Part shown: one piece after another, positions 36,660-60,133 of the stretch
How the letters are laid out: every line of letters starts with the position of its first letter
How positions within the stretch are numbered: position 1 is the first letter of the stretch
Assembly (NCBI GenBank): GCA_036231405.1
Contig: JAZAHK010000028.1
Coordinates: 575-64,574 of the forward strand
Direction: 5' to 3'
DNA length: 64,000 nt
Source: Nitrospinota bacterium
GTDB taxonomy: Bacteria > UBA8248
The notes under the pieces: generated by a model
The model's database searches: none
Told to the model about the DNA's origin: nothing
The model's input: the letters and a program-made list of their open reading frames with translations, nothing else
Made by a program: the position numbers and the translations under genes

Positions 36660-36690
36660 ATCAGCTTGCCAATGAATGTGCTCGTAAGCA

Positions 36691-36739: not shown

Positions 36740-36853
36740 TATTGATGAGTAGAAAATAAAAATGAGTTCATATGTTTCAATTATTTACAGAAATGACATC
36801 ATTGAGTGGTAGTGAACCTTAAAGCTAATAACACTGGACAAAAGGAGAAAATA

Positions 36854-37594: not shown

Positions 37595-37643
37595 AGGGAA
37601 GATGGCTCAAAATCAGAACAGAGACGATAAATAACAGGTTGAG

Positions 37644-38439: not shown

Positions 38440-38442
38440 AAG

Positions 38443-38600: not shown

Positions 38601-38765
38601 TCCTTAGTTTTTAAGCAGACCTTTAAAATTAATTTTTTTCAATGCCTAGAAAGTGCCGTCTAATCATGTAACGCCAAAGACAGATGCATGAGTGTGGAAC
38701 GCCATAGTTGTTATTTGAAATTGTTTCTAGTAGTCTACCGGCACACAATCAAATGAGGAGAAAAA

Positions 38766-39761: not shown

Positions 39762-39793
39762 TCACCGATTCTTTTGTTTGAAAGTTATTTTGT

Positions 39794-41346: not shown

Positions 41347-41696
41347 AGGTTATGTTGAAAGTTAAAATAGAAAGCGTGAGGCAGAGTTTAAATTTATTGA
41401 AAGAAAAATTTGAAAATGAAAACGATTGATTGCCCTCTTGTGATTTTCGCTTCAAACATGCAAATCCTGATTGTTGTACTGCTTGTAATCAACCTCATTA
41501 TAGAAACTGCTTGAAAGCTTTTCGAGACAAAATGGAAGAGAGTCCAGAAGCACGTTTTATAGCTTTGTGTCCATCGTGTATAGATTCTATTTCGTGGCGA
41601 ATAGATGCTCAAGAGGTCGTATCTTCAAGTTGGAATGAGTGGGAGTTAGAAACATAGGAGTAATGAGAGAAGTGACGGAGAGGGCTTTAATCTAAA

Positions 41697-42752: not shown

Positions 42753-42806
42753 GTTATACTCAAACGATCGTGTGAAAGCTAGAGTTTAATGTATAGGAGG
42801 TTGTGT

Positions 42807-43673
42807 ATGTCCGAATATGATTTGAAAGGAAGAACGATAATTGTGACTGGTGCAGGTCGTGGTCTTGGTCGAGCTATGACCGAGGCACTTACAGAAGCAG
42901 GTGCGAATGTAGTTGCAGCAGCTCATATAACAGAAGATTTTCCAGAACTTCAAGAAGCATGTTCGAGTCATCCTGGTGACCTATATTGTATAATGGGAGA
43001 TATTCGAAAATCAGACGATTGCGACAGAATTATTTCCGCGACTTTAGAGGTATTTGGTGATGTCCATGGCCTTGTTAATAATGCAGGACTAACTTTTACC
43101 TATATTACTCCGGATGCGTACAGACGAGATGCTTTTAAACAGAGAAAAGAATATCCAAAATTTTATGAAGCAAGTGATGAGGTTATACAAAACGTGATCG
43201 ATACTAATTTCGTAGGTGCAGATAAGCTATGCCGACGAGTAGTTCCTCTAATGATTGATCAGGGTTGGGGTCGTATCGTCAACGTCACAACCATGTATCG
43301 AACAATGACACGTCAGGGAGCGTCGCCATACGGTCCTTCCAAGGCCGCACTTGAATGTGCAACTGAAATTTGGGCAAAAGATTTAGCAGAGACCGGAGTA
43401 ACTGTAAATGTTTTAAATCCTGGTTCTGGTGCCGCTACTCCAGGAATGGCAGAGGAAATGAAGGAATATAGTAAGAGTTTAGAGAATCCTATCCTTATCG
43501 AGGCTGAATTAATGAAAGCTCCGATTGTCTGGCTTATTTCGGACGCAACCAATGAAATTACAGGAATGCGTTATGATGCAAAGCCTTGGGACCCAAATAA
43601 ATCTGCAGCCGAAGAAGCAGAACGAATTGGGGCTAAGGCAGGCGTTCTCCTCTACTCCATGCCAGACTACTAA
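42807..43673 (+). CDS. SDR-family oxidoreductase
   Basis: TGAGRGLGRAM glycine-rich NAD(P) motif. Start set at the ATG at 42807 behind a TAGGAGG RBS. The track ORF starts at 42789. Confidence 0.85.
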   Translation: MSEYDLKGRTIIVTGAGRGLGRAMTEALTEAGANVVAAAHITEDFPELQEACSSHPGDLYCIMGDIRKSDDCDRIISATLEVFGDVHGLVNNAGLTFTYITPDAYRRDAFKQRKEYPKFYEASDEVIQNVIDTNFVGADKLCRRVVPLMIDQGWGRIVNVTTMYRTMTRQGASPYGPSKAALECATEIWAKDLAETGVTVNVLNPGSGAATPGMAEEMKEYSKSLENPILIEAELMKAPIVWLISDATNEITGMRYDAKPWDPNKSAAEEAERIGAKAGVLLYSMPDY

Positions 43674-43684
43674 GTGGGTTATCT
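43466..43684. repeat. 219-bp direct repeat, copy 1 (native 3' end of the SDR gene)
   Basis: About 93% identical to 44982..45200. Runs from atatagtaagagtttagagaatcctatc through ctaagtgggttatct. Confidence 0.9.
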
Positions 43685-43783
43685 TCATTTCTTACCCACT
43701 TTATGTTACGATCACTGAATGAGCCGACTGCTGCCGTTATTTTGGTACGCATGTGTCGCTGCATTTATGCTAAAGGTATTTTT

Positions 43784-44959
43784 ATGTTTACAGCAACTAA
43801 AGATCGATCACTGCTTACTACCACTACGGGTGCCTTGCCACGTCCTACCTGGTATACTGAAAACCTTCGGGGGCAGCCATTATCCATAGGATTTTCACAG
43901 AAAGGTTATCGCGAACAACATTTTGATTGTCTCTCTTGTCATATTAGTGCGCAGAAGAGAGCAGGGATTGATATCTTTGTTGATGGTGATACAAGGCTCG
44001 ATGATGACGTCGCTGGTCGGAGCTGGGTGAGTTATGCCTATGAGCGGATAAAAGGTTTTGGTGTACCGGATATTTCTGTACAGCCCTATGCTGCAATGGC
44101 TGACAGTGGTCCTGGTGACTTCATATGGGAAGTTATAGAGACACGACTAACTCCTCATGTAGAGGATAAGATTGGTGAGACTTCGCTCCAACTCGATCGG
44201 GCATGGAAGGCGATTGCACCCATGACCAGTCGGCCCGTTAAGATTGGCTCAATCTCCGCCCAGGTTATTGCCCATATGTGCGTTAACGATCACTACACTA
44301 GCCGCTTTGACCTGCTAATGGCTTTATCGGAGGCATTGAATCATGAGTATCACGCTCTCGCCGATGCTGGAGCGCCAATTGTTCAAATAGAAGAACCCGC
44401 AATTCATCAATCGATGTACGCTCTCAACCCTGAAATTACTGCTGAACAGTATGTAGAAGCTTTTAACGTGGAAGTTGCTGGTTTGCGCGAAAAATGTGAA
44501 GTCTGGTGCCATGCTTGTTGGGGTAGCCCTGGTGCACAAAAAATGTTTCCTTCGGGAGCTTCCTACAAGGAGGCTCTACCATATTTTGATAAGCTCGACA
44601 TCGATGTCTTGACAGTCGAAGGTGCTACAAACGGCGGTATTGATGTCCCTCTATACGGTTCTATGATCTCCAAGGACAAAAAGATAGCGGTTGGAGTTAT
44701 CAGTCACCGCACAATGCAGATAGAAAGACCTGAAGAGGTTGCCAGTTTAATTCGTCTATGTCTCCAACATATTGAACCTGAGCGCTTGGTCCTCTCGAGT
44801 GATTGTGGATTTGGTCGTCAGTCAATGAGCCGTATGCATGCCTTCTATAAAATGGTGTCCCTGGTCCGGGGTGCAAATATTGTGCGTCGTGAGCTCGGAC
44901 TTGAGGAAGTTGCCGTTCCGGCAGCAGATCCCAACTTTTCTATGGTACCCATTCGTTAG
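43784..44959 (+). CDS. cobalamin-independent methionine synthase (MetE) C-terminal-domain-like / UroD-fold methyltransferase family protein
   Basis: Zn-ligand-like motifs VWCHACWG and LSSDCGFG as in Meth_synt_2. GC about 50%. Start set at the ATG at 43784. The track ORF starts at 43703. Confidence 0.65.
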   Translation: MFTATKDRSLLTTTTGALPRPTWYTENLRGQPLSIGFSQKGYREQHFDCLSCHISAQKRAGIDIFVDGDTRLDDDVAGRSWVSYAYERIKGFGVPDISVQPYAAMADSGPGDFIWEVIETRLTPHVEDKIGETSLQLDRAWKAIAPMTSRPVKIGSISAQVIAHMCVNDHYTSRFDLLMALSEALNHEYHALADAGAPIVQIEEPAIHQSMYALNPEITAEQYVEAFNVEVAGLREKCEVWCHACWGSPGAQKMFPSGASYKEALPYFDKLDIDVLTVEGATNGGIDVPLYGSMISKDKKIAVGVISHRTMQIERPEEVASLIRLCLQHIEPERLVLSSDCGFGRQSMSRMHAFYKMVSLVRGANIVRRELGLEEVAVPAADPNFSMVPIR

Positions 44960-44981
44960 TAATTGGTGTAAGAAAAAAATA

Positions 44982-45189
44982 ATATAGTAAGAGTTTAGAG
45001 AATCCTATCTTTCCCGAGCCAGAACTAATGAAGGCCCCAATTGTCTGGCTGATTTCCGATGCAACCAATGAAATTACAGGAATGCGTTATGATGCAAAGC
45101 CTTGGGACCCAAATAAACCTGCAGCCGAAGAAGCAGAACGAATTGGGGCTAAGGCAGGCGTTCTGCTCTACTCCATGCCAGACTACTAA
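44982..45189 (+). pseudogene. orphan 3' fragment of SDR gene (duplicate copy; last ~68 codons, ...KSLENPIFPEPELMKAPIVWLISDATNEITGMRYDAKPWDPNKPAAEEAERIGAKAGVLLYSMPDY*)
   Basis: Direct-repeat copy 2 (44982..45200) of the SDR 3' end. It has no 5' part or start codon. Confidence 0.85.
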
Positions 45190-45241
45190 GTGGGTTATCT
45201 GAAACATAGCTAACTACAAAATATGGTTGAATGATATGAAT

Positions 45242-46432
45242 TTACGGCAATCCACTTTGCTTAGAAAAAGTTTGCGTTAGTTCTAAAATATTTTCATCCA
45301 TTCCAGTGGATCCTAGAAATGATACTCCTACAGGGCAATCTTTAACTGTCAAAGCTGGCATAGATACTTGTGGAAATCCACCGAGACCAGCGATGCATGT
45401 TAATGCCATGGTTTTGGCTCTGAAGAGTTCAAGAGTTTTGCTGTCAGCTTGTTTTAGAGGAGCGATACAGGGTGCGGTTGGAAAAACAAGCACTGTTCCA
45501 GGTGGAATAATTTTGTCAATATGCTCCTTGATTTCGTTCCTTTTCTTCAGTGCTTCGTTAAATTCTGAATCAGTAATTGCTTCTGCAGTTTGAAATCGTT
45601 TATCTATACCCGGACCAAGGGAAGGATTATGTTCTCTGACCCATGGTAGATTGGTTATTTTAACTTCACCTGCTTGTATTATTCTGAACGTTTCCCACCA
45701 CTTATCGAGTCCTTCAGAAGAGACGGTAATTTGCTGGATATCTTTACCTAAAATCTCTTCAGTGAAATTTGTAAAAGCCAATTGGATTCCTGGGTCAGAG
45801 TTGTCGACGGCATCTTTGGCGACGATAATCCTGTTTATTGGTGTGTTTTCGCGTTTTCCTTTTAGTAATGAATGCCCAATTATAGGCATAAGGTTTGTTT
45901 TTGAGGAAAACCAACCTACTGTATCAAAGCTTGGTGCCATGGCACGTGCGCCATCAAGGCTTACACGTCCTATAGTAGGCCGAATCCCCCAAATTCCACA
46001 AAACGATGAAGGAATACGAACGGATCCCCCTGTGTCCGATCCTATTGAAAAATCTACAATCCCTGCTGCAACAGCTGCCGCTGAACCAGAAGATGAGCCA
46101 CCAGGTAATCGTTCGGGAGCTTTGCAATTAATCGGGGTGCCGTAATGTTTATTCGCACCTGTTAAGCTATAAAAAAACTCGTCGCAAATGTTCATTCCTA
46201 CTAAGGTTGCCCCGGAGTTTAATAGTTGAGTGATCGCTTTTGCGTTAACAGTAGAAGCCAGAGCGTGTTTATGAAATTCAGGGCTGCCATTTGAAGTTTT
46301 ATGTCCAATTACGTCGAATAGATCTTTCGCCATAAAATTAAGCCCAGCAAGGGGGCCAGTTTTTGAACCGGAAATAGGTTCTTTAAGGTTGTCTGGTACA
46401 AGACAGTTAACTGGATCTTCTAGAGGGAACAT
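45242..46432 (-). CDS. amidase-signature family amidase
   Basis: GGSSSGSAAAVAAGIVDFSIGSDTGGSVRIPSSFCGIWGIRPT, the AS signature with the Ser-cisSer-Lys triad. Confidence 0.85.
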   Translation of the reverse strand: MFPLEDPVNCLVPDNLKEPISGSKTGPLAGLNFMAKDLFDVIGHKTSNGSPEFHKHALASTVNAKAITQLLNSGATLVGMNICDEFFYSLTGANKHYGTPINCKAPERLPGGSSSGSAAAVAAGIVDFSIGSDTGGSVRIPSSFCGIWGIRPTIGRVSLDGARAMAPSFDTVGWFSSKTNLMPIIGHSLLKGKRENTPINRIIVAKDAVDNSDPGIQLAFTNFTEEILGKDIQQITVSSEGLDKWWETFRIIQAGEVKITNLPWVREHNPSLGPGIDKRFQTAEAITDSEFNEALKKRNEIKEHIDKIIPPGTVLVFPTAPCIAPLKQADSKTLELFRAKTMALTCIAGLGGFPQVSMPALTVKDCPVGVSFLGSTGMDENILELTQTFSKQSGLP

Positions 46433-47322
46433 TAAATTTTTGGTACCGGAATTTGGCCTGAAAACCAGTCAAGAATTTCTACGCCATCCCAGCATACTAC
46501 CCCAGGCTTAGAGAGGATTTTTTCAAAGGCCTCCCTAACATAAGGAATCCTATGTGGAGACCCAGAAAGGTATGTATGCATTGCTAAAGCCATAACTCTA
46601 GGTTGTCCATCTTCAGTTTCAGCATATATTGTGTCAAAATAGTCCAAGGCCCTATCTCGGTAGATGTGAGAGACGTTGTTTTGTATGTTCATCATTACAA
46701 TGTCATGAAGTTCATAATTATATGGAAGAGCTGCGACTGGTTTATGTTTAGTTCGTGCCCAGATGGGTTGGTCGTCTAAGACCCAGTCCCCTATATATTC
46801 GATCCCAGCTTCTGAAAGATGGTCTAAGGTGTCAAATGTTTGTGTTAGCCCAGGACCAAACCAACCCCGAGGCTGTGTGCCGGTAAAGTTTTTGATAACA
46901 TGCAATGAATGATCAATTACACTTCGTTCGTCTTCGAGTTTGTGCATTGGTAACTGCTCGTACGAATGTGCATTGAATTCCCATCCAGATTCAAGGCATG
47001 CCCCGGCAACTGCAGGATATTCTTCGCAAACTCGTGCATTTAGGGTTACCGTAGGTCTAATTCCCAAGTCATCCATCATTCTCTTTAAGCGCCAGAACCC
47101 CACGCGCATGCCGTATTCGTGCCAGGACCAATTTGGATGGTCAGGTGTCATTGGCAGACCTTGTGGTGGAGAAATTACCATTCGTGCCATAGCACGATCA
47201 ATATTCCAGACTTCAAGAGCAAGTATTGGCCAAATAATTACACGTCCATTGTCTGGCAAAGATAGTTGCTGCCTGCTCTCTATTGTTGAATAATCGATCC
47301 TTTCACTTGGCTTCATTTCCAC
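46432..47322 (-). CDS. polysaccharide deacetylase family protein (PuuE/allantoinase-like)
   Basis: 296-aa ORF. Its start overlaps the amidase stop by 1 nt. Deacetylase-like NodB pattern (TLDHLSEAGIEYIGDW...). Confidence 0.6.
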   Translation of the reverse strand: MEMKPSERIDYSTIESRQQLSLPDNGRVIIWPILALEVWNIDRAMARMVISPPQGLPMTPDHPNWSWHEYGMRVGFWRLKRMMDDLGIRPTVTLNARVCEEYPAVAGACLESGWEFNAHSYEQLPMHKLEDERSVIDHSLHVIKNFTGTQPRGWFGPGLTQTFDTLDHLSEAGIEYIGDWVLDDQPIWARTKHKPVAALPYNYELHDIVMMNIQNNVSHIYRDRALDYFDTIYAETEDGQPRVMALAMHTYLSGSPHRIPYVREAFEKILSKPGVVCWDGVEILDWFSGQIPVPKI

Positions 47323-47528
47323 AGGCTCCTTTATCCGATTTGAAATTCAAAGGGGTGTTCATGGCCCACATTTTGTATCTAGCGTCTATGAATTCGGTAT
47401 ACATGATGCAAGGCAAATTTACAATCACTTATAGTTTTTTTTGATGTGGTGATGTACATGTTATGGCAATAGTTGCTGTAATTCATTGAATAGGATGAAT
47501 AGTAAATTAAATGGGATAATTTTTTTAT

Positions 47529-48074
47529 ATGAAAAACGGGTTAGTGGTTGGGGTTTTCAGAAAAAAAGATCATAGCTTTTCGAAAGATGCTCAAAAAGAG
47601 TTGTCCTTAGTGGAAGGAAAGGGTGTTGAAGGAGATGCTCATTTTGGTGAAACCGTAAAGCATAGGTCGCGCGTTGCAGAAAATCCGAACCAACCAAATC
47701 TTCGACAAGTCCATTTGCTACCTATGGAGTTGTTAGAGGAATTGGAACGTGAAGGTTATAGCGTCAACCCTGGAGAATTAGGAGAGAATATTACTACGAA
47801 AGGGGTCGATCTTATAGAATTGCCGCTCGGTACACTTCTAAAGATTGGAGAAAGTGTTTCTTTGGAAGTTACTGGTTTGCGAGATCCATGTTACCAAATT
47901 GACAATTTCAAGAAGGGTTTGTTAAGTAAAGTTGTTTGCTGTGATGATGATGGAAACTTGGTTTTAAAAACAGGTGTTATGACTGTAGTGTTAAAGGGTG
48001 GACAGATAAAACCAAACGACAAAATTATCGTTAAATTACCTGAAAAACCCTTTGAAAAATTAGAGATAGTTTGA
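47529..48074 (+). CDS. MOSC-domain protein (YiiM-like)
   Basis: GVEGDAHFG ... GELGENITTKGVDL ... GLRDPCYQID, a MOSC beta-barrel with conserved Cys. Confidence 0.75.
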   Translation: MKNGLVVGVFRKKDHSFSKDAQKELSLVEGKGVEGDAHFGETVKHRSRVAENPNQPNLRQVHLLPMELLEELEREGYSVNPGELGENITTKGVDLIELPLGTLLKIGESVSLEVTGLRDPCYQIDNFKKGLLSKVVCCDDDGNLVLKTGVMTVVLKGGQIKPNDKIIVKLPEKPFEKLEIV

Positions 48075-48093: not shown

Positions 48094-49284
48094 ATGTCAG
48101 ATAAAGAAACCCCCATTTTGAGTGTAGGTCAACTTGTCACCTTAGATATAGGTCCCGTTGCACATGGAGGTCATTTTATTGCTCGACATAATGGGAGGGT
48201 AATCTTTGTCAGGCATGCAATTTCGGGAGAAAAAACCGTTGTTCGAATTACTTCCGTTACTTCTAAACTAGCTCATGGTGATGCTGTAGAAATACTTGTA
48301 CCTTCTAAAGATCGTGTTTCTGCTCCTTGTGTATATGCAGTTCCCGGTGGTTGCGGCGGCTGTGATTTTCAACATGTCTCGATAGAAGCACAAAGGGATC
48401 TGAAAAAATTTATTATACAAGATCAATTCAAGCGAATTGCGAAAATGGATGTAAATCCAGAGTTTATTCATGTTGAGCCTGAAACGGGATTACACTGGCG
48501 AACTCGTTTTGATTTGTCTGTTTCACGAAATGGGAAAGCTGGTTTATTTTCTCATAGAACAAAAGAAGTGCAAGAAATAGACAAATGCTTGATAGCTGTT
48601 GATACAATTAATGCATCGGATTTGTTTTCTCGTAATTGGAAGGGCGACGAAAGATTACGTGTGTCGGTATCCAGTTTGAATCAAATAAATATAAATCGAG
48701 CAGGTAGAAGTATTTCTGGTCCCACCCAACTGCATGAAGTTGTCGAGGATTATCGTTACACCATTTCCCCTGAAAGTTTTTGGCAAAGTCATAAGAATGC
48801 TCCGCGCATATTGCTTGAATTAGCAATGAAATTTATGGATTTAAAATCAGGAGATCGAGTTTGCGATTTGTATGGTGGAGCTGGTTTTTTCACTTTACCC
48901 ATATCAAAAAATATTGGTGATGCTGGAGAAGTCCACTTAATCGAAAGTGATAAAAGATGTATTCAAGATGCAAAAAAAATGTTTAAAAAAAATAAAAATA
49001 TAATAATTCATGCAGGAAAAGTTGAGGAAAAATTATCAAATATTAATGATATAGATCTTATTCTATTGGATCCTCCTAGAAACGGTGCTGGGAACAAAAT
49101 CATAAGTGAAATTATAGAGAAAAAACCAAGATCTATTCTTTATATTTCATGTGATCCTGCTTCATTAGCAAGAGATGCAAAGCTTTTGATCGATGACTCA
49201 TATTCTTTAGAGCAAATTACTGGGATCGATTTATTCCCCATGACTCATCATATTGAGTGTGTATCTTGTTTTAGTCGAAAGTAA
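48094..49284 (+). CDS. TRAM-domain class-I SAM-dependent RNA (uracil-5) methyltransferase (RlmD/RumA-like)
   Basis: N-terminal TRAM OB-fold. Cys cluster PCVYAVPGGCGGCDFQH. C-terminal DLYGGAGFFTL...LDPPRNGAG motifs. Confidence 0.8.
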   Translation: MSDKETPILSVGQLVTLDIGPVAHGGHFIARHNGRVIFVRHAISGEKTVVRITSVTSKLAHGDAVEILVPSKDRVSAPCVYAVPGGCGGCDFQHVSIEAQRDLKKFIIQDQFKRIAKMDVNPEFIHVEPETGLHWRTRFDLSVSRNGKAGLFSHRTKEVQEIDKCLIAVDTINASDLFSRNWKGDERLRVSVSSLNQININRAGRSISGPTQLHEVVEDYRYTISPESFWQSHKNAPRILLELAMKFMDLKSGDRVCDLYGGAGFFTLPISKNIGDAGEVHLIESDKRCIQDAKKMFKKNKNIIIHAGKVEEKLSNINDIDLILLDPPRNGAGNKIISEIIEKKPRSILYISCDPASLARDAKLLIDDSYSLEQITGIDLFPMTHHIECVSCFSRK

Positions 49285-49291
49285 TTCCTCT

Positions 49292-49918
49292 TCAAATGAG
49301 ACTTGCCATTTTTTGAACATACGCCTGTAAGTCTTCTGGTTTCGCGCTTGCTCTTCCCCCTCGAGCTTGTACTTCTTCTCCTTCAAGTTCGATTTGTAAA
49401 GAATCCATGAAACGATTCATTAAACCACGGAAACAAGCCACCATGGTGATTTCTACAATTTCTGCCGAATTAAAGTGTTTGGAAAGTTTTTCATAGGTTT
49501 CGTCGTCATATCTTGCGGTGTTCCAAGTGACTAGTTCTGCCCATTTGATGACAGATTTCTCACGGTCATCAAAGAGAGGACTTTCTAGATAATTGTCCCC
49601 ACTTAAAGTGTCAAGTTGTTCTTCCGTCCAGCCCGCAGTTCGCCCAACTAGGCGATTGTGTTTTGTTCAATACTGACACTCGTTAAGGGTAGATACTTTG
49701 ATCATAGCTAATGCTCGTATTTTGCCATCGAGTTTGCATCCTAGGTCATCTTTTTGAAGCACAGTTTGTAATGGAAGAAGAAATTTTAAAATTGCGGGGG
49801 AATGGGCAAATGTGCGCATCGAATTGGCAACCCTTCCATTAATATTATCTGCAGTTTCGAATGCGTTTCGTATATCAGGGTTATCTGCGTTATCTTGGAT
49901 AAAAGGTAATCTTGCCAT
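49292..49918 (-). CDS. AhpD/carboxymuconolactone-decarboxylase-family protein with in-frame TGA at the catalytic Cys position. Candidate selenoprotein (CxxU).
   Basis: The track ORF 49667..49918 ends ...LNECQY at a TGA (49667..49669). Manual translation continues in frame for 124 more codons, TKHNRLVGRTAGWTEEQLDTL...DREKSVIKWAELVTWNTA...VQKMASLI*, to the stop at 49292..49294. Conservation continues after the TGA and matches the paralog at 52206..52862. Confidence 0.7.
49640..49655 (-). promoter_or_regulatory. hairpin 11 nt downstream of the in-frame UGA. Candidate bacterial SECIS element.
   Basis: The mRNA reads UGA-ACAAAACACAA-UCGCC UAGUUG GGCGA. It has a 5-bp GC-rich stem, a 6-nt loop containing GU, and the canonical 11-nt spacing. 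Confidence 0.4.
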
Positions 49919-50044
49919 AAATATTCTCCTCTTTGATTTGTGAGAAATTAGGGTAGCTTTGATATACTAATTCATCAAGAGAAACTATTGTGAAATATTA
50001 AAAAGATAAGGATGTAGAATAATTATAGAAAAAGGTTTTTTGAA

Positions 50045-50449
50045 ATGGGATATGTAGATAAGACTTTGGCTGAAAACGAAAAAATAGTTTTCCGTTTGAA
50101 ATATCATTGGTCCTATACTCTCACGGCATTCTTATGGCTTCTTTTTTTTGGTTTGTTAATAATAGGAGTCATTCAATTTCTAAGAATGATGATTAATAAA
50201 TGGACAACAGAAAGGGTTCTTACTGCATTCAGGCTTATTAAAAAGACGGGTTGGATAAGCAGGAAAATCGAAAAAATTCGTGTAGCTAGAATGGAAGAAA
50301 TTAATCTTAGTCAATCATTCTGGGGGCGTATTTTTGGAGTGGAAAAAGTGAAAGTTACTGGAGCAGGTCGTGGTACTGTTGATTTGGTTTGGTTATCCGA
50401 TCCTATTGGATTTCAAAAAACTCTAAACAACGCTAAATTCAAAAGCTAA
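50045..50449 (+). CDS. bacterial PH-domain (bPH_2/YdbS-like) membrane protein
   Basis: 134 aa. Two TM segments followed by a PH-like region. Confidence 0.5.
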   Translation: MGYVDKTLAENEKIVFRLKYHWSYTLTAFLWLLFFGLLIIGVIQFLRMMINKWTTERVLTAFRLIKKTGWISRKIEKIRVARMEEINLSQSFWGRIFGVEKVKVTGAGRGTVDLVWLSDPIGFQKTLNNAKFKS

Positions 50450-50482
50450 AAAAACAAAACCTTTATTTTCAAAGGAGATTTA

Positions 50483-51271
50483 ATGGATTGTCGAATGGAT
50501 GGTCGTAATGCTCTAATAACGGGAAGCAGCCGGGGCCTAGGGCGTGCGATGGCTTTGAACTTTGCTTCTTCTGGTGCGAATGTTGTGATTTGTGGAAGGC
50601 GAAGTGATGTTCTCAATAAAACACGAAAAGAAATTGAAAACATTTCTAATAACAAGGTCGTTGCTATTACTGCCGATGTTAGTACGGCAGATGGTGTGAA
50701 TTCTTTAATTAAAAGTGCTCAAGAAAAATTGGGTGATATAGATATTTTGGTTAATAACGCGGGCATTTCAAAACACGGGCCTTTCATAGAAATTACAGAT
50801 GAAGAGTGGACACAGGATTTTGAACTTAAGGTTTTTGGTGCGATTCGAAGTTGTCGATTACTTTTCCCAGGAATGGTAGAGAGGAAATGGGGAAGGATCA
50901 TCAACGTACTCAACCTTGGTGCAAAGGCTCCTCCTGCACTAGGTGCTCCAACAGCTGTTTCGCGTGCAGCAGGTATGGCGATTACAAAGGTGTTATCCAA
51001 GGAAGGTGCTCCGTATAATGTTCTTGTGAATGCATTGTTGGTTGGTCGTATTGAAAGCGATCAGTGGCTTAATCGATGGGAAAAGTCGGATCAATCGATT
51101 TCATATGATGAATATTTAGAGGACATGGCGAATCAACTGAATTTACCTATGGGAAGAGTGGGTACTGCAGAAGAATTTGGAAATTTAGCGAGTTTTTTAT
51201 GTTCGGAAGCAGGTTCCTACATTAGTGGAGTAGCGATTAATGTCGATGGCGGTACAAGTTCAGTCGTTTAG
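50483..51271 (+). CDS. SDR-family oxidoreductase
   Basis: ITGSSRGLGRAMA glycine-rich motif. NNAG. Confidence 0.85.
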   Translation: MDCRMDGRNALITGSSRGLGRAMALNFASSGANVVICGRRSDVLNKTRKEIENISNNKVVAITADVSTADGVNSLIKSAQEKLGDIDILVNNAGISKHGPFIEITDEEWTQDFELKVFGAIRSCRLLFPGMVERKWGRIINVLNLGAKAPPALGAPTAVSRAAGMAITKVLSKEGAPYNVLVNALLVGRIESDQWLNRWEKSDQSISYDEYLEDMANQLNLPMGRVGTAEEFGNLASFLCSEAGSYISGVAINVDGGTSSVV

Positions 51272-51390
51272 TACTAATTTATAGTCTAATTGATAAGGTT
51301 TATAGATTTTCAATAAAAATACATTGAACTGAAACAAAGAAATAGAACAATAAATCCTCATGAAAAAAACGAAGTAAGAGGGAGAAAAAT

Positions 51391-52146
51391 ATGGGTGAAT
51401 TAGAAAGAAAGGTAGCTCTTGTAACTGGTGCATCTCGAGGAATCGGACGAGCGGTTTCCATTCGTTTAGCTTCTGAGGGTGCTTCGATATATTTGGCAGC
51501 TGATGGTACCGAAGAGGAATTGTCAGAAACGGAAAGAGAATGTCATAAGGCAGGCGCAGTTAATGTTGCTTGGGGCATTCACGACATATCGAGTTCTGGA
51601 GAAGCAGAACTCATGGTTTTAGATGCTCATAAACGTATGGGTCGAATTGATATTCTCGTTAATAATGCAGGGATCAGGGTTCGGAAAAGTTTTGGTGATT
51701 TTTCTCAAGATGAATTTGATCGAGTTGTAGCAGTGAATCTCCGCGCACCTTTCATGGCAAGTCAGGCAGTAGTTTCCATTATGAAATCTCAGGGCGGTGG
51801 ACATATTATTCATATGGCTAGTCAACTGGGTATTGTAGCTTCTCGTTATGGTTCAGTTTATAGCCTTACTAAGGCAGGTCTGATCCAACTTACTCGTTCG
51901 ATGGCTCTTGAATTAGGGAAGGAAGGTATATCGGTAAATGCTATTTGCCCTGGTCCTATTTCGACTGATGGATTTATGGCAAATCGAAATCCTGGGGAAC
52001 TTGAACAACGTGCGCGTGATGTCCCTATAGGACGTTTTGGTACGGTAGAAGAGGTTGCCGCTATGGTTTCTTTTCTCGTTTCTAAAGATGCGGCTTTCAT
52101 TTTAGGTCATGCTTTGGTTATGGATGGAGGATATGTTGTTCACTAG
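51391..52146 (+). CDS. SDR-family oxidoreductase
   Basis: VTGASRGIGRAV. NNAG. YSLTKAGL catalytic YxxxK. Confidence 0.85.
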   Translation: MGELERKVALVTGASRGIGRAVSIRLASEGASIYLAADGTEEELSETERECHKAGAVNVAWGIHDISSSGEAELMVLDAHKRMGRIDILVNNAGIRVRKSFGDFSQDEFDRVVAVNLRAPFMASQAVVSIMKSQGGGHIIHMASQLGIVASRYGSVYSLTKAGLIQLTRSMALELGKEGISVNAICPGPISTDGFMANRNPGELEQRARDVPIGRFGTVEEVAAMVSFLVSKDAAFILGHALVMDGGYVVH

Positions 52147-52205
52147 TAAATTATAAATAGGAGAAAAGGATGTTCTTGATATAGATTAATAAAAGGAGAT
52201 ATGGA

Positions 52206-52862
52206 ATGGCATTAATTGAACTCATTTTACCAGAGAACGCCCAAGGGGAACAGAAGAAAACTTATGAGATTTTAGAGCATATTCGTGCAAAACATGTATT
52301 TTCGCAGATGGCAAGTGTAAATTCTCCATTCTTGTCTCGGATTATTTCTGCATTAGTTTATTCCTTGCGTGAAGGTATGGGGACTATCCTTCCTTCTAAG
52401 ATCAAACAAATGGCGATAATTAAGACTAGTCAAATTAATACTTGTGACTATTGACTTAATCATAATACTGCTCTCGGAAGAGCAACTGGGATAACTGATG
52501 AAGAGGCAGAAGTTGTTTTTTCTGAAGAATATTTAGATTCCGAAATTCTTACTGATCGAGAGAAGGCAGCAGTTCTTTGGGCGGAACATGTCACCCGAAA
52601 CACAGCAAAACTTCGTCCAGAAATACAAGAAGAGGTAAAGAAACATTTTGCAGATCAGGAACTATTTGAACTTACTTTTATAATTAGTTACTTTAATTTT
52701 AGAAATCGCCTACATGATTCATTACTATTGCCTTTAGATGGAGAAGACACTTTGCAAGACAATGTTGGTTTCCTTAAATTTGACCCTGGTAGTATGAAGA
52801 ACTATCTTCAGGCTGTAGTTGATAATTGGCCAGATGAATTTCCAAAACCTAATGTGAACTGA
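52206..52862 (+). CDS. AhpD/carboxymuconolactone-decarboxylase-family protein with in-frame TGA at the catalytic Cys position. Candidate selenoprotein (CxxU). Paralog of 49292..49918.
   Basis: The track ORF 52206..52454 ends ...INTCDY at TGA 52452..52454. The frame continues LNHNTALGRATGITDEEAEVV...DREKAAVLWAEHVTRNTA...KPNVN* to the stop at 52860..52862. It aligns column for column with the other paralog across the TGA. Confidence 0.7.
52469..52484 (+). promoter_or_regulatory. hairpin 14 nt downstream of in-frame UGA. Candidate SECIS element.
   Basis: tgctct cgga agagca, a 6-bp stem with a 4-nt loop. Confidence 0.3.
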
Positions 52863-52870
52863 GGAATTTC

Positions 52871-53929
52871 ATGTTTGATAATATTGCCGTTTTTGGTACT
52901 GGAGCCATAGGGAGTAGTACAGCTGCGGATCTTACTGACGCGGGGTATAACGTGACGATCGTGGATCAGTGGCCCGCACATGTTGAGGCAATGAAAAAAG
53001 GTGGTCTGCACATCCAAATGCCAGATCTTGATTTAAAGGTTAAGGTTAAAGCATTGCACATTTGTGAGCTTGCTTCGGAAAAGCCAGAATTTGATCTTAT
53101 TATTCTGGCAGTTAAATCTTTTGATACCCGTTGGATGGCTGAACTAATGTTCCCCTATTTGAGTGAGAATGGAGTGCTAGTTGGTTTGCAAAATAGTATG
53201 AATGAAGTAGAGATAACCTGCGATATCATTGGAAGGGAAAGAATAGTCGGAGCCTGTATCGAACTTTCTGGTGAGTTATTTACTCCTGGTTTTGTTCAGA
53301 GAAATACGCCAAGAACGGGCACTTGGTTTGCGGTTGGGGAACTTAATGGGAGTATTACCCCCCGACTTCAAGAAATTCAAAAAATCCTTAGTCATGTTGC
53401 AAAAGTAGAAATATCTGAAAATATCCTTGGTACAAAATGGACGAAGCTAATAATCAACTCTATGAGTATGGGTCCTTGGGGTTTGATTGGTTTATTAAAT
53501 CGTGAGGTGATGCAGTTGCCTGGCATGTTTGATTTGGCAGTTGATCTCGGAATGGAAACAGTTGCAGTGGGGACTGCGCTGGGCCTAAATGTAGAACCGG
53601 TGTTTGGATTAAGGGAAGACGATTTTACTGGAGACGAGGATAAAATGTTACTGAATGCTTTGAAAACGATGACTGGTCATACAGGTCCAAGAGCTCGTAC
53701 TGCACCGATTCACGATCATTTAAAGGACCGAAAAAATGAAATAGAGTTTATTAATGGACTCGTTTCACGTAAGGGGAAAGAGCTCGGAGTTCCTACTCCA
53801 TTTAATGATGTGATAAGTGAGCTAGCAAGGGAAATTAATCAAGGCAATCTAATTATGGATCCTTCAAACTATAATCTCATTAAGAAAAAATTGTCAGATA
53901 ACGGACTGAATGTCGACTATATGAAATGA
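52871..53929 (+). CDS. 2-dehydropantoate 2-reductase (ApbA/PanE) family oxidoreductase
   Basis: IAVFGTGAIGSSTAADL N-terminal Rossmann. ApbA_C-like C-terminus. Confidence 0.75.
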   Translation: MFDNIAVFGTGAIGSSTAADLTDAGYNVTIVDQWPAHVEAMKKGGLHIQMPDLDLKVKVKALHICELASEKPEFDLIILAVKSFDTRWMAELMFPYLSENGVLVGLQNSMNEVEITCDIIGRERIVGACIELSGELFTPGFVQRNTPRTGTWFAVGELNGSITPRLQEIQKILSHVAKVEISENILGTKWTKLIINSMSMGPWGLIGLLNREVMQLPGMFDLAVDLGMETVAVGTALGLNVEPVFGLREDDFTGDEDKMLLNALKTMTGHTGPRARTAPIHDHLKDRKNEIEFINGLVSRKGKELGVPTPFNDVISELAREINQGNLIMDPSNYNLIKKKLSDNGLNVDYMK

Positions 53930-57880: not shown

Positions 57881-58846
57881 TTGCCGCAATCCTTTTCCAA
57901 GAAAAAATTTGTGAGTGTTGCTGGTCTTTTCGGATTTTTTTCTGGTATCGTCGCAGATCTTGATATGTTTATTAGATCAACTGACGATCCTCTCCTGTAT
58001 CTAGAATTTCATCGGCAATTTACCCATTCGTTAATATTTATTCCTATCGGGGGGGTAATTTGTTCAGTTTTTTTCTTCTTGATTTTAGGAAAACGTTGGG
58101 AAATCTCTTTTAAACAGAGTGTTCTTTTTTGTACCTTAGGTTATGCAACCCATCCCTTATTAGATGCTTGTACTAGTTATGGCACCATGTTGTTATGGCC
58201 ATTTAGTTACGAAAGAATATCATGGGACAATATATCAATTATTGATCCCCTGTTTACAATTCCAATTCTAATTTTGATTTTAATTGCTGGATTTAAGAAG
58301 AAACAAATATTTGCGCGTATTGCTTTAACATGGGTAATTCTTTATTTGACGTTAGGTATCGTCTTCAGGAATTCTGTAATCGAAATAGGAAAAGAAATTG
58401 CCGTTAGTCGTGGACATACTCCTTTACGCTTAAAAGCAGAGCCTAGTTTTGGGAATATTTTCCTTTGGAAAATTATTTACGAGAATTCTGGAATGTACTA
58501 TGTTGATGCTGTGCGGACAGTACCTTCTTTCAAAATACTTTCAGGGGAATCAATTCAAAAATTAAATATTGCATCAAGTTTTCCTTGGTTAGATATGGAT
58601 TCTCAGCAGGCTAAAGACATAGAGCGTTTCAGATGGTTTAGCAATGATTATTTAGCACAGGACAAAGTTCACAAGAATAGAATAATTGATATTCGTTTTT
58701 CGAAGATTCCTAACAGGATTACTCCACTATGGTCAATTGAATTGTTTGAAAATGCAAGTTTTGACAAACATGTAATTTACAACAGGCATCGAAATCTATC
58801 AGATAATAGGTTCAGTTTGCTCTGGGAGATGTTGTGGAGCAAGTGA
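57881..58846 (+). CDS. membrane-bound metal-dependent hydrolase (YdjM/DUF457-like)
   Basis: Hydrophobic. His-rich motifs (FHRQFTHS, HPLLD). The annotated start is TTG. The conserved-looking N-terminal sequence DPLTQGVIGAA is encoded upstream with no canonical start codon. Confidence 0.55.
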   Translation: MPQSFSKKKFVSVAGLFGFFSGIVADLDMFIRSTDDPLLYLEFHRQFTHSLIFIPIGGVICSVFFFLILGKRWEISFKQSVLFCTLGYATHPLLDACTSYGTMLLWPFSYERISWDNISIIDPLFTIPILILILIAGFKKKQIFARIALTWVILYLTLGIVFRNSVIEIGKEIAVSRGHTPLRLKAEPSFGNIFLWKIIYENSGMYYVDAVRTVPSFKILSGESIQKLNIASSFPWLDMDSQQAKDIERFRWFSNDYLAQDKVHKNRIIDIRFSKIPNRITPLWSIELFENASFDKHVIYNRHRNLSDNRFSLLWEMLWSK

Positions 58847-58903: not shown

Positions 58904-60133
58904 TTGATGGAATGTCCAAATTATTTTTGGCCATGGTTTTCAGATGAAGAATATAAGAGGCGATACGCTCTCGTTCGGCGTGGGATGGAAGAGGAAGGTA
59001 TAGATTGTCTTCTAGTTTATGGAGTGAGTAGGGGAATGGGGATGGAGCCCGGTCAGACGAATCTGGTTTACTTAACTAGCGTTGCTTCCTGGAGCCAGAC
59101 ATACCTTGTTTTTCCGTTACACGGAGAACCTACTATGTTTATTATGAGTGCGAATCAAGTCAAGAACATCCGAGATAATTCAGTGATAAAAGATGTTCGT
59201 CCTGGAGGAACATTTACTCGGACTGGTGGAATGGGCGGTTCTGCGGGACCGGTAGCCGAACGTCTTAAGGAACTTGGGCTCAAAAATAAATGTATAGGAA
59301 TTGTTGGAGATTCAGGGTGGTTGAATATTAATTTGCCACATGAGGCTCATGTTTTGATAACAAGTGCGCTTCCTACTACGGAGTTTGAAGTTGTTACGAA
59401 GTGGTACGAAAATCTTCGCCTTCAGAAAAGTGAGGAAGAAATTGAACGTATGCGCCAATCTGCAGCCGTTACTGACGCAGTTTACGAAGTAATGGTAGAG
59501 GCTACAAAACCTGGAGTTCGTCCTTGCGATCTGTACAAGTTAATGGGAATTACAGCAATGCAAATGGACGCTAGGCTGACTCTCGGACATGTAGGTCGAA
59601 CGCCAATGAGTTCTCCTGATATGGATTACCCTCATTATTATCCTCTCACTACACCAATTGAGAAGGATGATGTGGTGATGACGGAAGTTTCGGCTGGCAT
59701 AGGAGGGTACTATGGAAAAATATGGGGTACATTTTTTATGGGAGAACCAACTCCTGAATATGAAACACTTTTTAATTTAGCAGTTAAGACGAGTCACGAT
59801 CTTCACGCAGCCATAAGGCCTGGTGTTCGGGTCGGTGATCTTACATCGATTTGTTTAGATGATACTCAGAATGCCGGATACAAGGCGAAGACCAGTATCA
59901 CTGGTTGGTCTACTTGGAATGAACCTCCTGATGTTCGAGGTGCAGGAGATAGCGTAACCGATTCGGATTTTATCTTTCGTAAAAATACGTGTCTTAGCGT
60001 TACCGGTTGGCCCTCAAACAAAGATGAGTCGATGGGTGTTTGGTTAGGGGATGTTTGCCTTGTGACTGAAAACGGTGCTGAGAACCTTCAAAAATATCCA
60101 ATACGTGAATTACACATAGTAAAACGTGTTTGA
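58904..60133 (+). CDS. M24-family metallopeptidase (creatinase/Xaa-Pro aminopeptidase-like)
   Basis: Creatinase_N-like N-terminus plus a pita-bread fold C-terminus (VVMTEVSAGIGGYYGKIWGTFFMGEP). Confidence 0.7.
   Translation: MMECPNYFWPWFSDEEYKRRYALVRRGMEEEGIDCLLVYGVSRGMGMEPGQTNLVYLTSVASWSQTYLVFPLHGEPTMFIMSANQVKNIRDNSVIKDVRPGGTFTRTGGMGGSAGPVAERLKELGLKNKCIGIVGDSGWLNINLPHEAHVLITSALPTTEFEVVTKWYENLRLQKSEEEIERMRQSAAVTDAVYEVMVEATKPGVRPCDLYKLMGITAMQMDARLTLGHVGRTPMSSPDMDYPHYYPLTTPIEKDDVVMTEVSAGIGGYYGKIWGTFFMGEPTPEYETLFNLAVKTSHDLHAAIRPGVRVGDLTSICLDDTQNAGYKAKTSITGWSTWNEPPDVRGAGDSVTDSDFIFRKNTCLSVTGWPSNKDESMGVWLGDVCLVTENGAENLQKYPIRELHIVKRV

What the first reader, a model, noticed from the sequence alone, without database searches (positions are those of the whole stretch)
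52206..52862. Second AhpD-like paralog with TGA at the same alignment column: candidate selenoprotein #2
This plus-strand paralog stops in the track at TGA 52452..52454 after ...SQINTCDY. The frame continues LNHNTALGRATGITDEEAEVV...DREKAAVLWAEHVTRNTA... to 52862. The two paralogs align across the TGA (AMIKVSTLNECQY-U-TKHNRLVGRTAG vs AIIKTSQINTCDY-U-LNHNTALGRATG). Purifying selection on the sequence downstream of the TGA in two diverged copies argues strongly that the TGA is translated (Sec) and is not a nonsense mutation. A 6-bp-stem hairpin (tgctct cgga agagca) lies 14 nt downstream.
Basis: partly seen in the sequence, partly recalled or inferred. Interest (0 to 1): 0.85.

Follow-up and report, generated by a model that had tools for sequence, protein, structure and literature searches.

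The report
AhpD-like selenoprotein gene, mis-annotated as truncated
This is almost certainly a real gene for a selenium-containing antioxidant-type enzyme whose internal TGA codes for selenocysteine; the family has been known since 2005, so the gene is ordinary except that the public record cuts it off at the TGA.

Summary
A + strand gene starts at ATG 52206, has an in-frame TGA at 52452-52454 and stays open to a TGA stop at 52860-52862. The TGA is the last position of a C-D-Y-U (CxxU) motif. The reported hairpin TGCTCT-CGGA-AGAGCA starts 14 nt after it.

The selenocysteine reading is strongly supported.
- Among related genes from public genomes and metagenomes, 89 distinct sequences have TGA at this column and 17 have TGC/TGT (Cys).
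- dN/dS is equally low before and after the TGA (0.04-0.09 and 0.07-0.09).
- TGA is an ordinary stop elsewhere in the window.
- No start codon could restart translation after the TGA.
- An independent assembly, 99% identical, has the same TGA.
- Across the family a hairpin with a GGUC loop follows the UGA. Its synonymous sites are frozen only in TGA forms.

The window's own hairpin is a variant (CGGA loop, shifted register) and is only weakly significant alone (p about 0.09).

The protein is an AhpD/CMD-fold thiol-selenol oxidoreductase. It fits the CxxU "AhpD-like" selenoproteins described in 2005, which are abundant in ocean metagenomes.

The source is a marine Nitrospinota MAG, where GenBank lists only an 82-aa "hypothetical protein". 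Sec machinery could not be checked. This is a new member of a known kind.

The parts
52194..52198 (+). Shine-Dalgarno-like AGGAG, 7 nt upstream of the start codon
   Evidence: Read directly from the sequence. The N-terminus MALI.LI.PE.A.GE is conserved in the closest orthologs.
52206..52862 (+). Full selenoprotein coding sequence: 218 residues including Sec83, ending at TGA 52860-52862. AhpD/CMD-family protein.
   Evidence: Translation. Pfam CMD PF02627 scores 31.5 bits against a cut-off of 23. TIGR00778 AhpD core scores 28.7 against 27.8. dN/dS is 0.04-0.09 upstream and 0.07-0.09 downstream of the TGA. Orthologs are collinear over residues 1-216.
52443..52454 (+). Redox motif Cys80-Asp-Tyr-Sec83 (TGT GAC TAT TGA). 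The Sec codon is 52452-52454.
   Evidence: The motif aligns with the CxxC of Cys homologs such as P0002, P0005, P0013, P0020 and P0027. 89 distinct relatives have TGA and 17 have TGC/TGT at this column. It also aligns with the CxxC of solved AhpD-family proteins PA0269 and 2PFX.
52469..52484 (+). Candidate bacterial SECIS hairpin: stem UGCUCU/AGAGCA (6 bp) and loop CGGA (52475-52478). It sits 14 nt after the UGA, with 20 nt between the UGA and the loop.
   Evidence: Fold results. The distance lies within the 16-37 nt range, and the small apical loop contains G, as described for bacterial SECIS (PMC10778597, PMC1088965). An identical element is present in an independent assembly, L135. In the closest relatives the element is CUGCU(C)U-UGGA-A(A)AGCAG. 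Alone it is weakly significant, p about 0.085.
49292..49918 (-). Paralog 1: a second AhpD-like gene with an in-frame TGA at 49669-49667 (motif C-Q-Y-U). Its hairpin UCGCCU-AGUU-GGGCGA lies at 49655-49640, starting 11 nt after the UGA.
   Evidence: Six orthologs keep the TGA and an identical hairpin core while flanking synonymous sites vary.
50483..51271 (+). Short-chain dehydrogenase gene that lies between the two selenoprotein genes in all close relatives. Context only.
   Evidence: Pfam adh_short. The order TRAM, P1(-), SDR, P2, PanE is conserved in L001, L002, L080-L082, L133 and L135.
52871..53929 (+). PanE/ApbA-type NAD(P)H-dependent reductase gene starting 9 nt after the stop of the selenoprotein gene. 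It is probably co-transcribed. Context only.
   Evidence: Pfam ApbA and ApbA_C. It lies downstream of the P2 ortholog in L001, L080-L083 and L135 (12 nt in L135, 39 to about 510 nt in the others).

Best explanation
The region 52206-52862 is one gene for a 218-residue selenoprotein of the AhpD / carboxymuconolactone-decarboxylase fold.

Recoding. The UGA at 52452-52454 is decoded as selenocysteine by the standard bacterial route. A SelB-Sec-tRNA(Sec) complex is held at the ribosome by a short hairpin inside the coding sequence, just downstream of the UGA (here 52469-52484). Translation then continues to the ordinary TGA stop at 52860.

Chemistry. Sec83 takes the place of the second cysteine of the AhpD-type CxxC redox pair, giving C80-x-x-U83. 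In a confident model of a Cys homolog this pair sits at the N-terminal end of a helix. The protein most likely works as a thiol/selenol oxidoreductase that cycles between a selenol-thiol form and a selenenylsulfide form. It would reduce a hydroperoxide, a peroxiredoxin or another oxidised substrate.

What is shown: the gene structure, the Sec/Cys column, selection on both halves, and RNA-level constraint on the family hairpin.
What is inferred: decoding by SelB in this organism, the redox cycle, and the substrate.
For: 1. Sec/Cys pair at a redox motif. 75 of 84 homologous genes in reference genomes have TGA at this column and 9 have TGC/TGT. The metagenome set gives the same picture. After removing duplicates there are 89 Sec-type and 17 Cys-type sequences. 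The column is the second Cys of the CxxC in solved AhpD-family proteins.

2. Translation continues past the TGA. dN/dS against four orthologs at 88-92% identity is 0.068-0.091 downstream and 0.040-0.089 upstream. No in-frame ATG/GTG/TTG after the TGA leaves an ORF of 50 aa or more in that frame. The conserved WAEHVT.NT block therefore cannot come from a restart.

3. Not an error and not a changed code. L135, an independent ENA assembly, is 99% identical and has the same TGA. TGA ends 11 of 52 long ORFs in the window, including this gene.

4. RNA element across the family.
- In 90 distinct Sec-type sequences a 7-bp stem with a 4-nt loop lies at nt 18-35, counted from the U of UGA. 81% of cells are paired, against 33-58% when the partner column is slid.
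- The closing pair is U-A in 57 sequences and C-G in 33, with none unpaired.
- The loop Gly codon is GGU in 70, GGC in 12 and GGA in 7 Sec forms. It is GGC in 16 and GGG in 1 Cys form, and never GGU.
- Among 49 Sec forms that encode the same peptide LGQAAG, the codons inside the hairpin are frozen: CTT 49/49, GGT 47/49, CAA 47/49, GCG 46/49. The next third position outside the stem varies freely.
- Cys forms with the same peptide use CTG GGC CAG GCC.

5. Window element. It is a 6-bp hairpin with loop CGGA and 20 nt between UGA and loop. This fits the published 16-37 nt range and the G-containing small apical loop (PMC10778597, PMC1088965).

6. Fold. The AlphaFold model of Cys homolog P0002 has pLDDT 92. 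Its best PDB matches are AhpD of D. radiodurans (6K40, TM 0.69/0.80) and other AhpD-core proteins.

7. Literature. CxxU AhpD-like selenoproteins are established (PMC1088965, PMC2398784, PMC13188914). A MAG that carries four family copies (L009, L016, L028, L034; FO_M_Nitrospinota_01) is listed with 54 selenoprotein genes in BSepDB, which only includes species with a Sec pathway (PMC13326102).
Against: - No selA, selB, selD or tRNA-Sec was found in the 64-kb window or in the 135 fetched loci (tRNA-Sec only). The rest of the source genome could not be searched, so the machinery is assumed.
- The window's hairpin is not significant alone. 8.5% of synonymous recodings do as well.
- Its loop (CGGA) and register differ from the GGUC consensus of the family. 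Even its 77-78% identical relatives L084 and L085 have GGUC.
- No Rfam family matches the element.
- No NCBIfam selenoprotein model reaches its cut-off.
- There is no experimental evidence of selenium incorporation or of enzyme activity for any member examined here.
Confidence: 0.9

Rival explanations
1. The TGA is a true stop. The gene makes only the 82-residue N-terminal fragment, as annotated in GenBank, and the downstream frame is a decaying or non-functional remnant (pseudogene).
For: NCBI annotates MED5579638.1 as an 82-aa hypothetical protein and leaves the downstream part unannotated. Many databases hold only N-terminal or C-terminal fragments.
Against: - Downstream dN/dS is 0.07-0.09, the same as upstream.
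- The downstream frame is open and collinear in more than 100 homologs from Nitrospinota, Rhodospirillales, SAR324, Tectomicrobia and Burkholderiales.
- An 82-residue product would lack most of the AhpD core (Pfam match residues 61-127).
- Cys homologs are full length.
Confidence: 0.02
2. The UGA is read through without selenium. A near-cognate or suppressor tRNA inserts Trp, Cys or Gly, either at this site or through a reassigned genetic code.
For: Some gene callers translated the same column as W in ENA records (P0001, P0003, P0008). Sec machinery was not found in the window.
Against: - TGA ends 11 of 52 long ORFs in the window, including this gene and paralog 1, so there is no genome-wide reassignment.
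- The position is the redox-active Cys of a CxxC, where Trp or Gly would destroy the site.
- UGA is tightly linked to a downstream hairpin with frozen synonymous sites that Cys forms lack. That is what SelB-dependent decoding predicts.
- Site-specific Cys insertion at UGA cannot be strictly excluded by sequence.
Confidence: 0.05
3. The TGA is an assembly or sequencing error in a metagenome-assembled genome, and the real codon is TGC or TGT.
For: The source is a MAG. TGA and TGC/TGT differ by a single base.
Against: - The same TGA is in L135, a 99% identical independent assembly.
- It is also in L001, L002 and L080-L087 from different samples and projects, and in 89 distinct sequences overall.
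Confidence: 0.01
4. A split gene: two separate polypeptides (1-82 and a restarted C-terminal piece) assemble into one enzyme.
For: Gene callers often predict a separate 124-138 aa C-terminal protein in relatives.
Against: - In the window no in-frame ATG/GTG/TTG after the TGA leaves an ORF of 50 aa or more.
- The called C-terminal fragments in relatives start at different, non-homologous positions and omit conserved residues such as HNTALG.
- A split would remove the second redox residue altogether.
Confidence: 0.02

Closest known systems
AhpD-like selenoproteins of marine metagenomes (Zhang, Fomenko and Gladyshev 2005, 'AhpD-like protein', COG2128, CxxU; 'AhpD-like 1' in the GOS analysis of 2008; listed under TIGR01926 in a 2026 review)
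   Same: - CMD/AhpD-core domain.
- Sec in a CxxU motif that aligns with the CxxC of Cys homologs.
- SECIS-like hairpin with a G-containing small loop directly after the UGA.
- Marine origin.
- JGI labels full-length homologs 'alkylhydroperoxidase family enzyme' or 'uncharacterized peroxidase-related enzyme' (PMC1088965, PMC2398784, PMC13188914).
   Different: - The window protein and all tested relatives score below the TIGR01926 cut-off: 40.9-71.6 bits against 81.8.
- The histidine after the motif is at +3 (CxxUxxH), not +4 as in 2PFX or PA0269.
- There is a conserved C-terminal extension of about 45 residues (..DNWPDxFPxPN) not covered by the solved structures that matched by sequence or by the NCBIfam family models.
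- I could not compare directly with the 2005 reference sequences.
Mycobacterium tuberculosis AhpD and other solved AhpD-core proteins (D. radiodurans AhpD 6K40, P. aeruginosa PA0269/AhpD 2O4D/7XW1, 2PFX, 2OYO, 3C1L)
   Same: - All-helical AhpD fold. A model of a 45-51% identical homolog gives TM 0.69/0.80 to 6K40.
- The redox pair sits at the start of a helix.
- In most family members a Glu lies 12 residues before the first Cys, as in the E-x11-C-x2-C motif of AhpD. That motif is quoted from my own knowledge.
   Different: - Sec replaces the second Cys.
- In the window's orthogroup the Glu is Gln (KIKQMAIIKTSQ).
- The His spacing is +3.
- No AhpC/peroxiredoxin gene is nearby. The conserved neighbours are NAD(P)H-dependent reductases.
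NCBIfam (seleno)protein models NF053654 'YciW-related (seleno)protein' and NF041238 'alkylhydroperoxidase-related (seleno)protein, CFYUT'
   Same: They are the best or near-best NCBIfam matches. They are AhpD-superfamily proteins that exist in Sec and Cys forms with a CxxU motif.
   Different: Scores are far below the cut-offs: 50 against 310 and 25 against 175. Domain length and architecture differ (NF041238 is 357 positions). The window protein is not a member.
Escherichia coli fdhF SECIS (SelB-binding hairpin)
   Same: - A hairpin inside the ORF directly after the UGA.
- The family consensus loop GGUC is, from my own knowledge and not verified here, the same tetranucleotide as the fdhF apical loop, whose G and U contact SelB.
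- The distance is within the published 16-37 nt (PMC10778597).
   Different: The window's own element has loop CGGA on a 6-bp stem in a register shifted by one nucleotide. Paralog 1 has loop AGUU. No bulged U is evident in the window element.

Membership tests
Bacterial selenoprotein gene (UGA-Sec with in-ORF SECIS) | In-frame UGA inside an ORF that is under purifying selection on both sides | tested here: met
   dN/dS is 0.040-0.089 upstream and 0.068-0.091 downstream against L001, L080, L081 and L082.
Bacterial selenoprotein gene (UGA-Sec with in-ORF SECIS) | Homologs with Cys aligned to the UGA | tested here: met
   17 distinct TGC/TGT forms and 89 distinct TGA forms at the same column. Protein homologs show CxxC.
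Bacterial selenoprotein gene (UGA-Sec with in-ORF SECIS) | Stem-loop directly downstream, apical loop 16-37 nt from the UGA, small loop containing G | tested here: met
   Window: 6-bp stem, loop CGGA, 20 nt from the UGA. Family: covariation and frozen synonymous sites. Caveat: the window hairpin alone has p about 0.085 against synonymous recodings.
Bacterial selenoprotein gene (UGA-Sec with in-ORF SECIS) | selA, selB, selC (tRNA-Sec) and selD in the same genome | not testable with these tools
   None in the window. The 139-kb source contig and the rest of the MAG could not be fetched. Indirect support only: the related MAG FO_M_Nitrospinota_01 is listed in BSepDB as Sec-utilising with 54 selenoprotein genes.
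Bacterial selenoprotein gene (UGA-Sec with in-ORF SECIS) | Selenium shown in the protein | not testable with these tools
   Needs 75Se labelling or mass spectrometry.
AhpD / carboxymuconolactone decarboxylase superfamily (PF02627, TIGR00778) | Domain model matched above the curated cut-off | tested here: met
   PF02627 scores 31.5 against 23. TIGR00778 scores 28.7 against 27.8. Both were run with U written as C.
AhpD / carboxymuconolactone decarboxylase superfamily (PF02627, TIGR00778) | All-helical AhpD fold | tested here: met
pLDDT is 92. The top PDB matches are all AhpD-core proteins, TM up to 0.69/0.80.
AhpD sensu stricto (M. tuberculosis type, E-x11-C-x2-C-x3-H proton relay) | Glu 12 residues before the first Cys, and His 4 residues after the second | tested here: not met
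   The window has Gln68 in place of Glu and His at +3 (C-D-Y-U-L-N-H). The motif definition is from my own knowledge.
AhpD-like selenoprotein family (COG2128 / TIGR01926, CxxU) | CxxU motif in an AhpD-core domain | tested here: met
   C80-D-Y-U83. The family motif is given as CxxU in PMC1088965 and PMC2398784.
AhpD-like selenoprotein family (COG2128 / TIGR01926, CxxU) | TIGR01926 score at or above its cut-off (81.8 bits) | tested here: not met
   40.9 bits for the window protein and 51-72 bits for seven homologs. The window protein is a related subfamily by this criterion, not a strict member.
AhpD-like selenoprotein family (COG2128 / TIGR01926, CxxU) | Assignment to COG2128 | tested here: inconclusive
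   No COG library was available. JGI names for homologs P0007, P0008, P0018 and P0037 correspond to the COG2128 and TIGR01926 descriptions.
NF053654 YciW-related (seleno)protein / NF041238 AhpD_rel_CFYUT | Score at or above the curated cut-off | tested here: not met
   50.1 against 310, and 24.6 against 175.

The most novel reading that the evidence does not exclude
The roughly 220-residue subfamily to which this gene belongs may be a functionally distinct selenoenzyme rather than a classical AhpC-recycling AhpD. Its features are:
- a CxxU-x2-H motif and a DNWPDxFPxPN tail;
- about 85% Sec forms, with Cys forms nested inside Sec clades;
- three to four copies per genome in Nitrospinota-labelled MAGs;
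- conserved linkage to NAD(P)H-dependent reductases or to a DUF4286-like protein.

In addition, the pelagic low-GC Nitrospinota clade of this window has replaced the family's GGUC SECIS loop by YGGA in a shifted register, and has replaced the proton-relay Glu by Gln. This would imply co-evolution of SelB with its RNA target and a catalytic site adapted to the low pKa of selenol.
Probability: 0.2. Interest if true: 0.45.

Novelty: new member of a known kind. Interest (0 to 1): 0.25.

Why it matters
Practical value. The public record for this genome, and for many related ones, cuts the gene at the UGA. GenBank has an 82-aa "hypothetical protein". Relatives are listed as 124-aa "carboxymuconolactone decarboxylase family" or "hypothetical" fragments. 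JGI even names the N-terminal fragments "DNA polymerase III psi subunit". No current NCBIfam model rescues the subfamily. Its selenium dependence is therefore invisible in standard annotation.

Biological value. The gene adds to evidence that marine Nitrospinota, which are important nitrite oxidisers, carry several Sec-dependent AhpD-like genes. If confirmed, this ties part of their redox defence to selenium supply.

It does not change what is known about selenocysteine decoding or about the existence of AhpD-like selenoproteins.

Tried and rejected
- Rfam. Scans at gathering threshold (whole window) and at E <= 10 (around the UGA here and in L066) gave no SECIS family match. Bacterial SECIS hairpins are too short for those models, so this says nothing either way.
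- tRNA-Sec. ARAGORN found none in the window or in the 135 fetched loci.
- Sec machinery in the window. Pfam scans of 50 long ORFs of the window (about ten short or uncertain ones were left unscanned) found no SelA, SelB or SelD.
- Source contig. Exact look-ups of window proteins found either nothing or only a 1.4-kb independent contig. The cluster look-up did identify the source as an NCBI Nitrospinota MAG with VX794_ locus tags.
- BSepDB supplements, to check the Sec trait in Nitrospinota, are not held.
A Cys homolog was modelled instead.
- Other read-through candidates. A scan for more in-frame TGA pairs gave one other long pair, 57881-58846 plus 58904-60133. These are two unrelated genes (YdjM and M24 peptidase) that merely share a frame.
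- Hairpin significance. I asked whether the hairpin alone proves a SECIS. The synonymous-recoding null shows it does not.
Full report
**1. What is in the sequence**

On the + strand an ORF starts at ATG 52206, 7 nt after an AGGAG. It reads 82 sense codons ending ...IIKTSQINTCDY and meets TGA at 52452-52454. It then stays open for 135 more codons (LNHNTALGRATGITDEEAEVV...REKAAVLWAEHVTRNTA...DNWPDEFPKPNVN) to a TGA at 52860-52862.

A paralog lies on the minus strand, from 49918 down to 49292. It has TGA at 49669-49667 after ...STLNECQY. The two proteins are 33% identical over 190 residues, with the TGA in the same column.

It is TGCTCT (52469-52474), CGGA, AGAGCA (52479-52484), and it starts 14 nt after the TGA.

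**2. What kind of protein**

With U written as C, both paralogs match Pfam CMD (PF02627) above the gathering score. The + strand protein also passes the AhpD core-domain model TIGR00778.

By sequence, the closest solved structures are P. aeruginosa PA0269/AhpD and several "peroxidase-related" AhpD-core proteins. The TGA column aligns with the second Cys of their CxxC.

A 45-51% identical Cys homolog (P0002) gave a confident model with pLDDT 92. Its best PDB matches are all AhpD-family proteins, led by D. radiodurans AhpD 6K40 with TM 0.69/0.80. Its CxxC sits at the start of a helix.

The motif here is therefore C80-x-x-U83. This is the redox pair of AhpD with the second cysteine replaced.

**3. 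Related sequences**

A protein search returned three groups:
- full-length homologs of about 220-230 residues with CxxC;
- a few with "W" at the column, which are TGA read in another genetic code;
- dozens of 124-138-residue fragments that begin just after the column. These are gene calls truncated by a TGA.

I fetched DNA for 79 loci from reference genomes and 55 from metagenomes. In the genome set 75 of 84 gene copies have TGA at the column and 9 have TGC or TGT. The metagenome set is similar. After removing duplicates there are 89 Sec-type and 17 Cys-type sequences.

The TGA forms come from Nitrospinota, Rhodospirillales, SAR324, Tectomicrobia and Burkholderiales-labelled MAGs. Many genomes carry three or four TGA copies, or tandem pairs. 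In a neighbour-joining tree the Cys forms make two clades nested among Sec forms. That tree is a rough one.

**4. Is the downstream part translated?**

- Against four orthologs at 88-92% identity, dN/dS is 0.040-0.089 for codons 1-82 and 0.068-0.091 for codons 84-216.
- After the TGA, no in-frame ATG/GTG/TTG leaves an ORF of 50 codons or more, so a restart cannot produce the conserved part.
- TGA is the ordinary stop of 11 of 52 long ORFs in the window, including this gene and its paralog. The genetic code is therefore not reassigned.
- An independent ENA assembly (L135) is 99% identical and carries the same TGA and the same hairpin. This excludes an assembly error.

**5. The RNA element**

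Family-wide the evidence is strong.

- The 90 distinct Sec-type sequences align without gaps.
- They show a 7-bp stem at nt 18-24 and 29-35, counted from the U of UGA, with a 4-nt loop at 25-28. 81% of cells are paired, against 33-58% when the 3' partners are slid.
- The closing pair is U-A in 57 sequences and C-G in 33, and none is unpaired. It links the synonymous third position of a Leu codon to the second position of a Gln/Arg codon.
- The loop is GGUC in 70 of 89 Sec forms, GGCC in 12, and GGAA or GGAC in 7.
- The Gly codon in the loop is GGU in 70 Sec forms and never in the 17 Cys forms, which have GGC in 16 and GGG in 1.
- The cleanest test uses 49 distinct Sec forms that all encode L-G-Q-A-A-G. 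Codons inside the hairpin are frozen: CTT 49/49, GGT 47/49, CAA 47/49, GCG 46/49. The first third-position outside the stem is free (GCT/GCC/GCG/GCA = 14/5/14/16). Cys forms encoding the same peptide use CTG GGC CAG GCC.

This is an RNA-level constraint that exists only when the codon is UGA. A SelB-binding SECIS predicts exactly that.

The geometry matches published descriptions of bacterial SECIS: 16-37 nt between the UGA and a small apical loop containing G (PMC10778597, PMC1088965). From my own knowledge, GGUC is also the apical loop of the E. coli fdhF SECIS. I did not verify this here.

**6. The window's own element is a variant**

The window and its closest relatives (L001, L002, L080-L083, L135) have GGA-A at nt 25-28. 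They fold in a register shifted by one nucleotide. In the window this gives 6 bp with loop CGGA. In the relatives it gives CUGCU(C)U-UGGA-A(A)AGCAG with a C-A mismatch. The next relatives out (L084, L085, 77-78% identity) still have GGUC.

Taken alone the window hairpin is weak evidence. 8.5% of synonymous recodings of the same peptide, drawn with the window's codon usage, give a single hairpin at least as stable in the allowed position. The figure is 10.7% for paralog 1.

Paralog 1's hairpin core is identical in six orthologs while flanking synonymous sites vary.

The case for a SECIS rests mainly on the family, not on this one stem.

**7. Source and context**

Exact matches to window proteins identify the source as an NCBI MAG labelled "Nitrospinota bacterium", with VX794_ locus tags and a 139-kb contig. 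There the gene is annotated only as MED5579638.1, an 82-aa hypothetical protein, and nothing is annotated after the TGA.

The closest genomes are uncultured "Nitrospinaceae" MAGs.

The gene order TRAM-methyltransferase, paralog 1 (minus strand), short-chain dehydrogenase, this gene, PanE-like reductase is conserved in seven related contigs. The window has two extra genes inserted, a bPH_2 gene and a second SDR.

No peroxiredoxin gene was found among the neighbouring genes scanned. In more distant relatives a DUF4286-like protein of about 241 aa is the adjacent gene in 41 loci. The window has a 44% identical homolog 15 kb away, at 36806-37594.

**8. What could not be shown**

No selA, selB, selD or tRNA-Sec lies in the window. 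The rest of the genome was out of reach.

The only support for the machinery is indirect. The MAG FO_M_Nitrospinota_01 carries four family copies (L009, L016, L028, L034). BSepDB lists it with 54 selenoprotein genes, and that database only includes species with at least two Sec-pathway genes. BSepDB places that MAG in GTDB lineage UBA8248, which is not necessarily the lineage of this window.

**9. Comparison with what is known**

CxxU "AhpD-like" selenoproteins (COG2128) were described from the Sargasso Sea in 2005, with 27 sequences. "AhpD-like 1" was the fourth most abundant selenoprotein family in the GOS data, with 299 Sec and 902 Cys forms. A 2026 review lists the family under TIGR01926 (PMC1088965, PMC2398784, PMC13188914).

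This gene works like those proteins and is very probably one of them, but strict membership tests are mixed.
- TIGR01926 is matched below its cut-off: 40.9 bits here and 51-72 bits in homologs, against 81.8.
- The two NCBIfam "(seleno)protein" AhpD-related models are far below cut-off.
- The His after the motif is at +3 rather than +4.
- The Glu that lies 12 residues before the first Cys in most of the family is Gln in this orthogroup.
- A conserved C-terminal tail of about 45 residues is not covered by the solved structures that matched by sequence or by the NCBIfam family models.

I file it as a new member of a known kind, possibly a distinct subfamily.

**10. Verdict**

The kind of thing is well known, so interest is low to moderate.

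Its main value is as an annotation correction. It is also one more indication that marine Nitrospinota carry several selenium-dependent AhpD-like genes.

Noticed in passing
window 49292-49918 (-), TGA at 49669-49667, hairpin 49640-49655: Paralog 1 is also a TGA-containing AhpD-like gene (C-Q-Y-U). Six orthologs (L001, L002, L080-L082, L133) keep the TGA and an identical hairpin core AAUCGCCUAGUUGGGCGAAC while neighbouring synonymous sites vary.
   Followed up: partly
window 48094-53929; L001, L002, L080-L082, L133, L135: The gene order TRAM-methyltransferase, paralog 1 (-), SDR, paralog 2, PanE-like reductase is conserved in the clade. The window alone has two extra genes inserted: bPH_2 at 50045-50449 and a second SDR at 51391-52146.
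   Followed up: partly
window 52206-52454 (GenBank MED5579638.1): The public record annotates only the 82-aa N-terminal fragment, as 'hypothetical protein VX794_06355'. JGI names identical fragments 'DNA polymerase III psi subunit', which is spurious. ENA calls for some relatives show W at the Sec column.
   Followed up: yes
window 36806-37594 (+); L003-L015, L017-L029 and others: A protein of about 241 aa with only a weak DUF4286 match lies directly next to the AhpD-like Sec gene in 41 fetched loci. The window has a 44% identical homolog, but it is 15 kb away from the selenoprotein genes.
   Followed up: partly
window 52407-52409 (Gln68): In this orthogroup (window, L080-L087) the residue 12 positions before the first Cys is Gln. 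Most of the family has Glu there, the position of the proton-relay Glu of AhpD. Paralog 1 has Ala there.
   Followed up: no
L064, L065, L067, L069, L119 (Rhodospirillales); L025; L092; L084/L087: Two or three TGA-containing paralogs sit in tandem or within 2 kb of each other. A small Cys-free CMD-family gene of about 126 aa lies beside them in the Rhodospirillales loci.
   Followed up: no
L038, L044, L046, L048, L050, L056, L074, L075, L079, L122, L130 and others: Cys forms fall into two clades nested inside Sec forms in a neighbour-joining tree. This suggests at least two Sec-to-Cys replacements, each accompanied by loss of the GGU loop codon and of the hairpin.
   Followed up: partly
window 57881-58846 and 58904-60133 (+): Two long ORFs share a frame and are separated by a TGA and a 57-nt gap. 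They are unrelated genes (YdjM membrane protein and M24 peptidase), so this is not a read-through candidate.
   Followed up: yes
window 32001-48000: G+C is higher here (0.41-0.46) than in the rest of the window (0.35-0.40).
   Followed up: no
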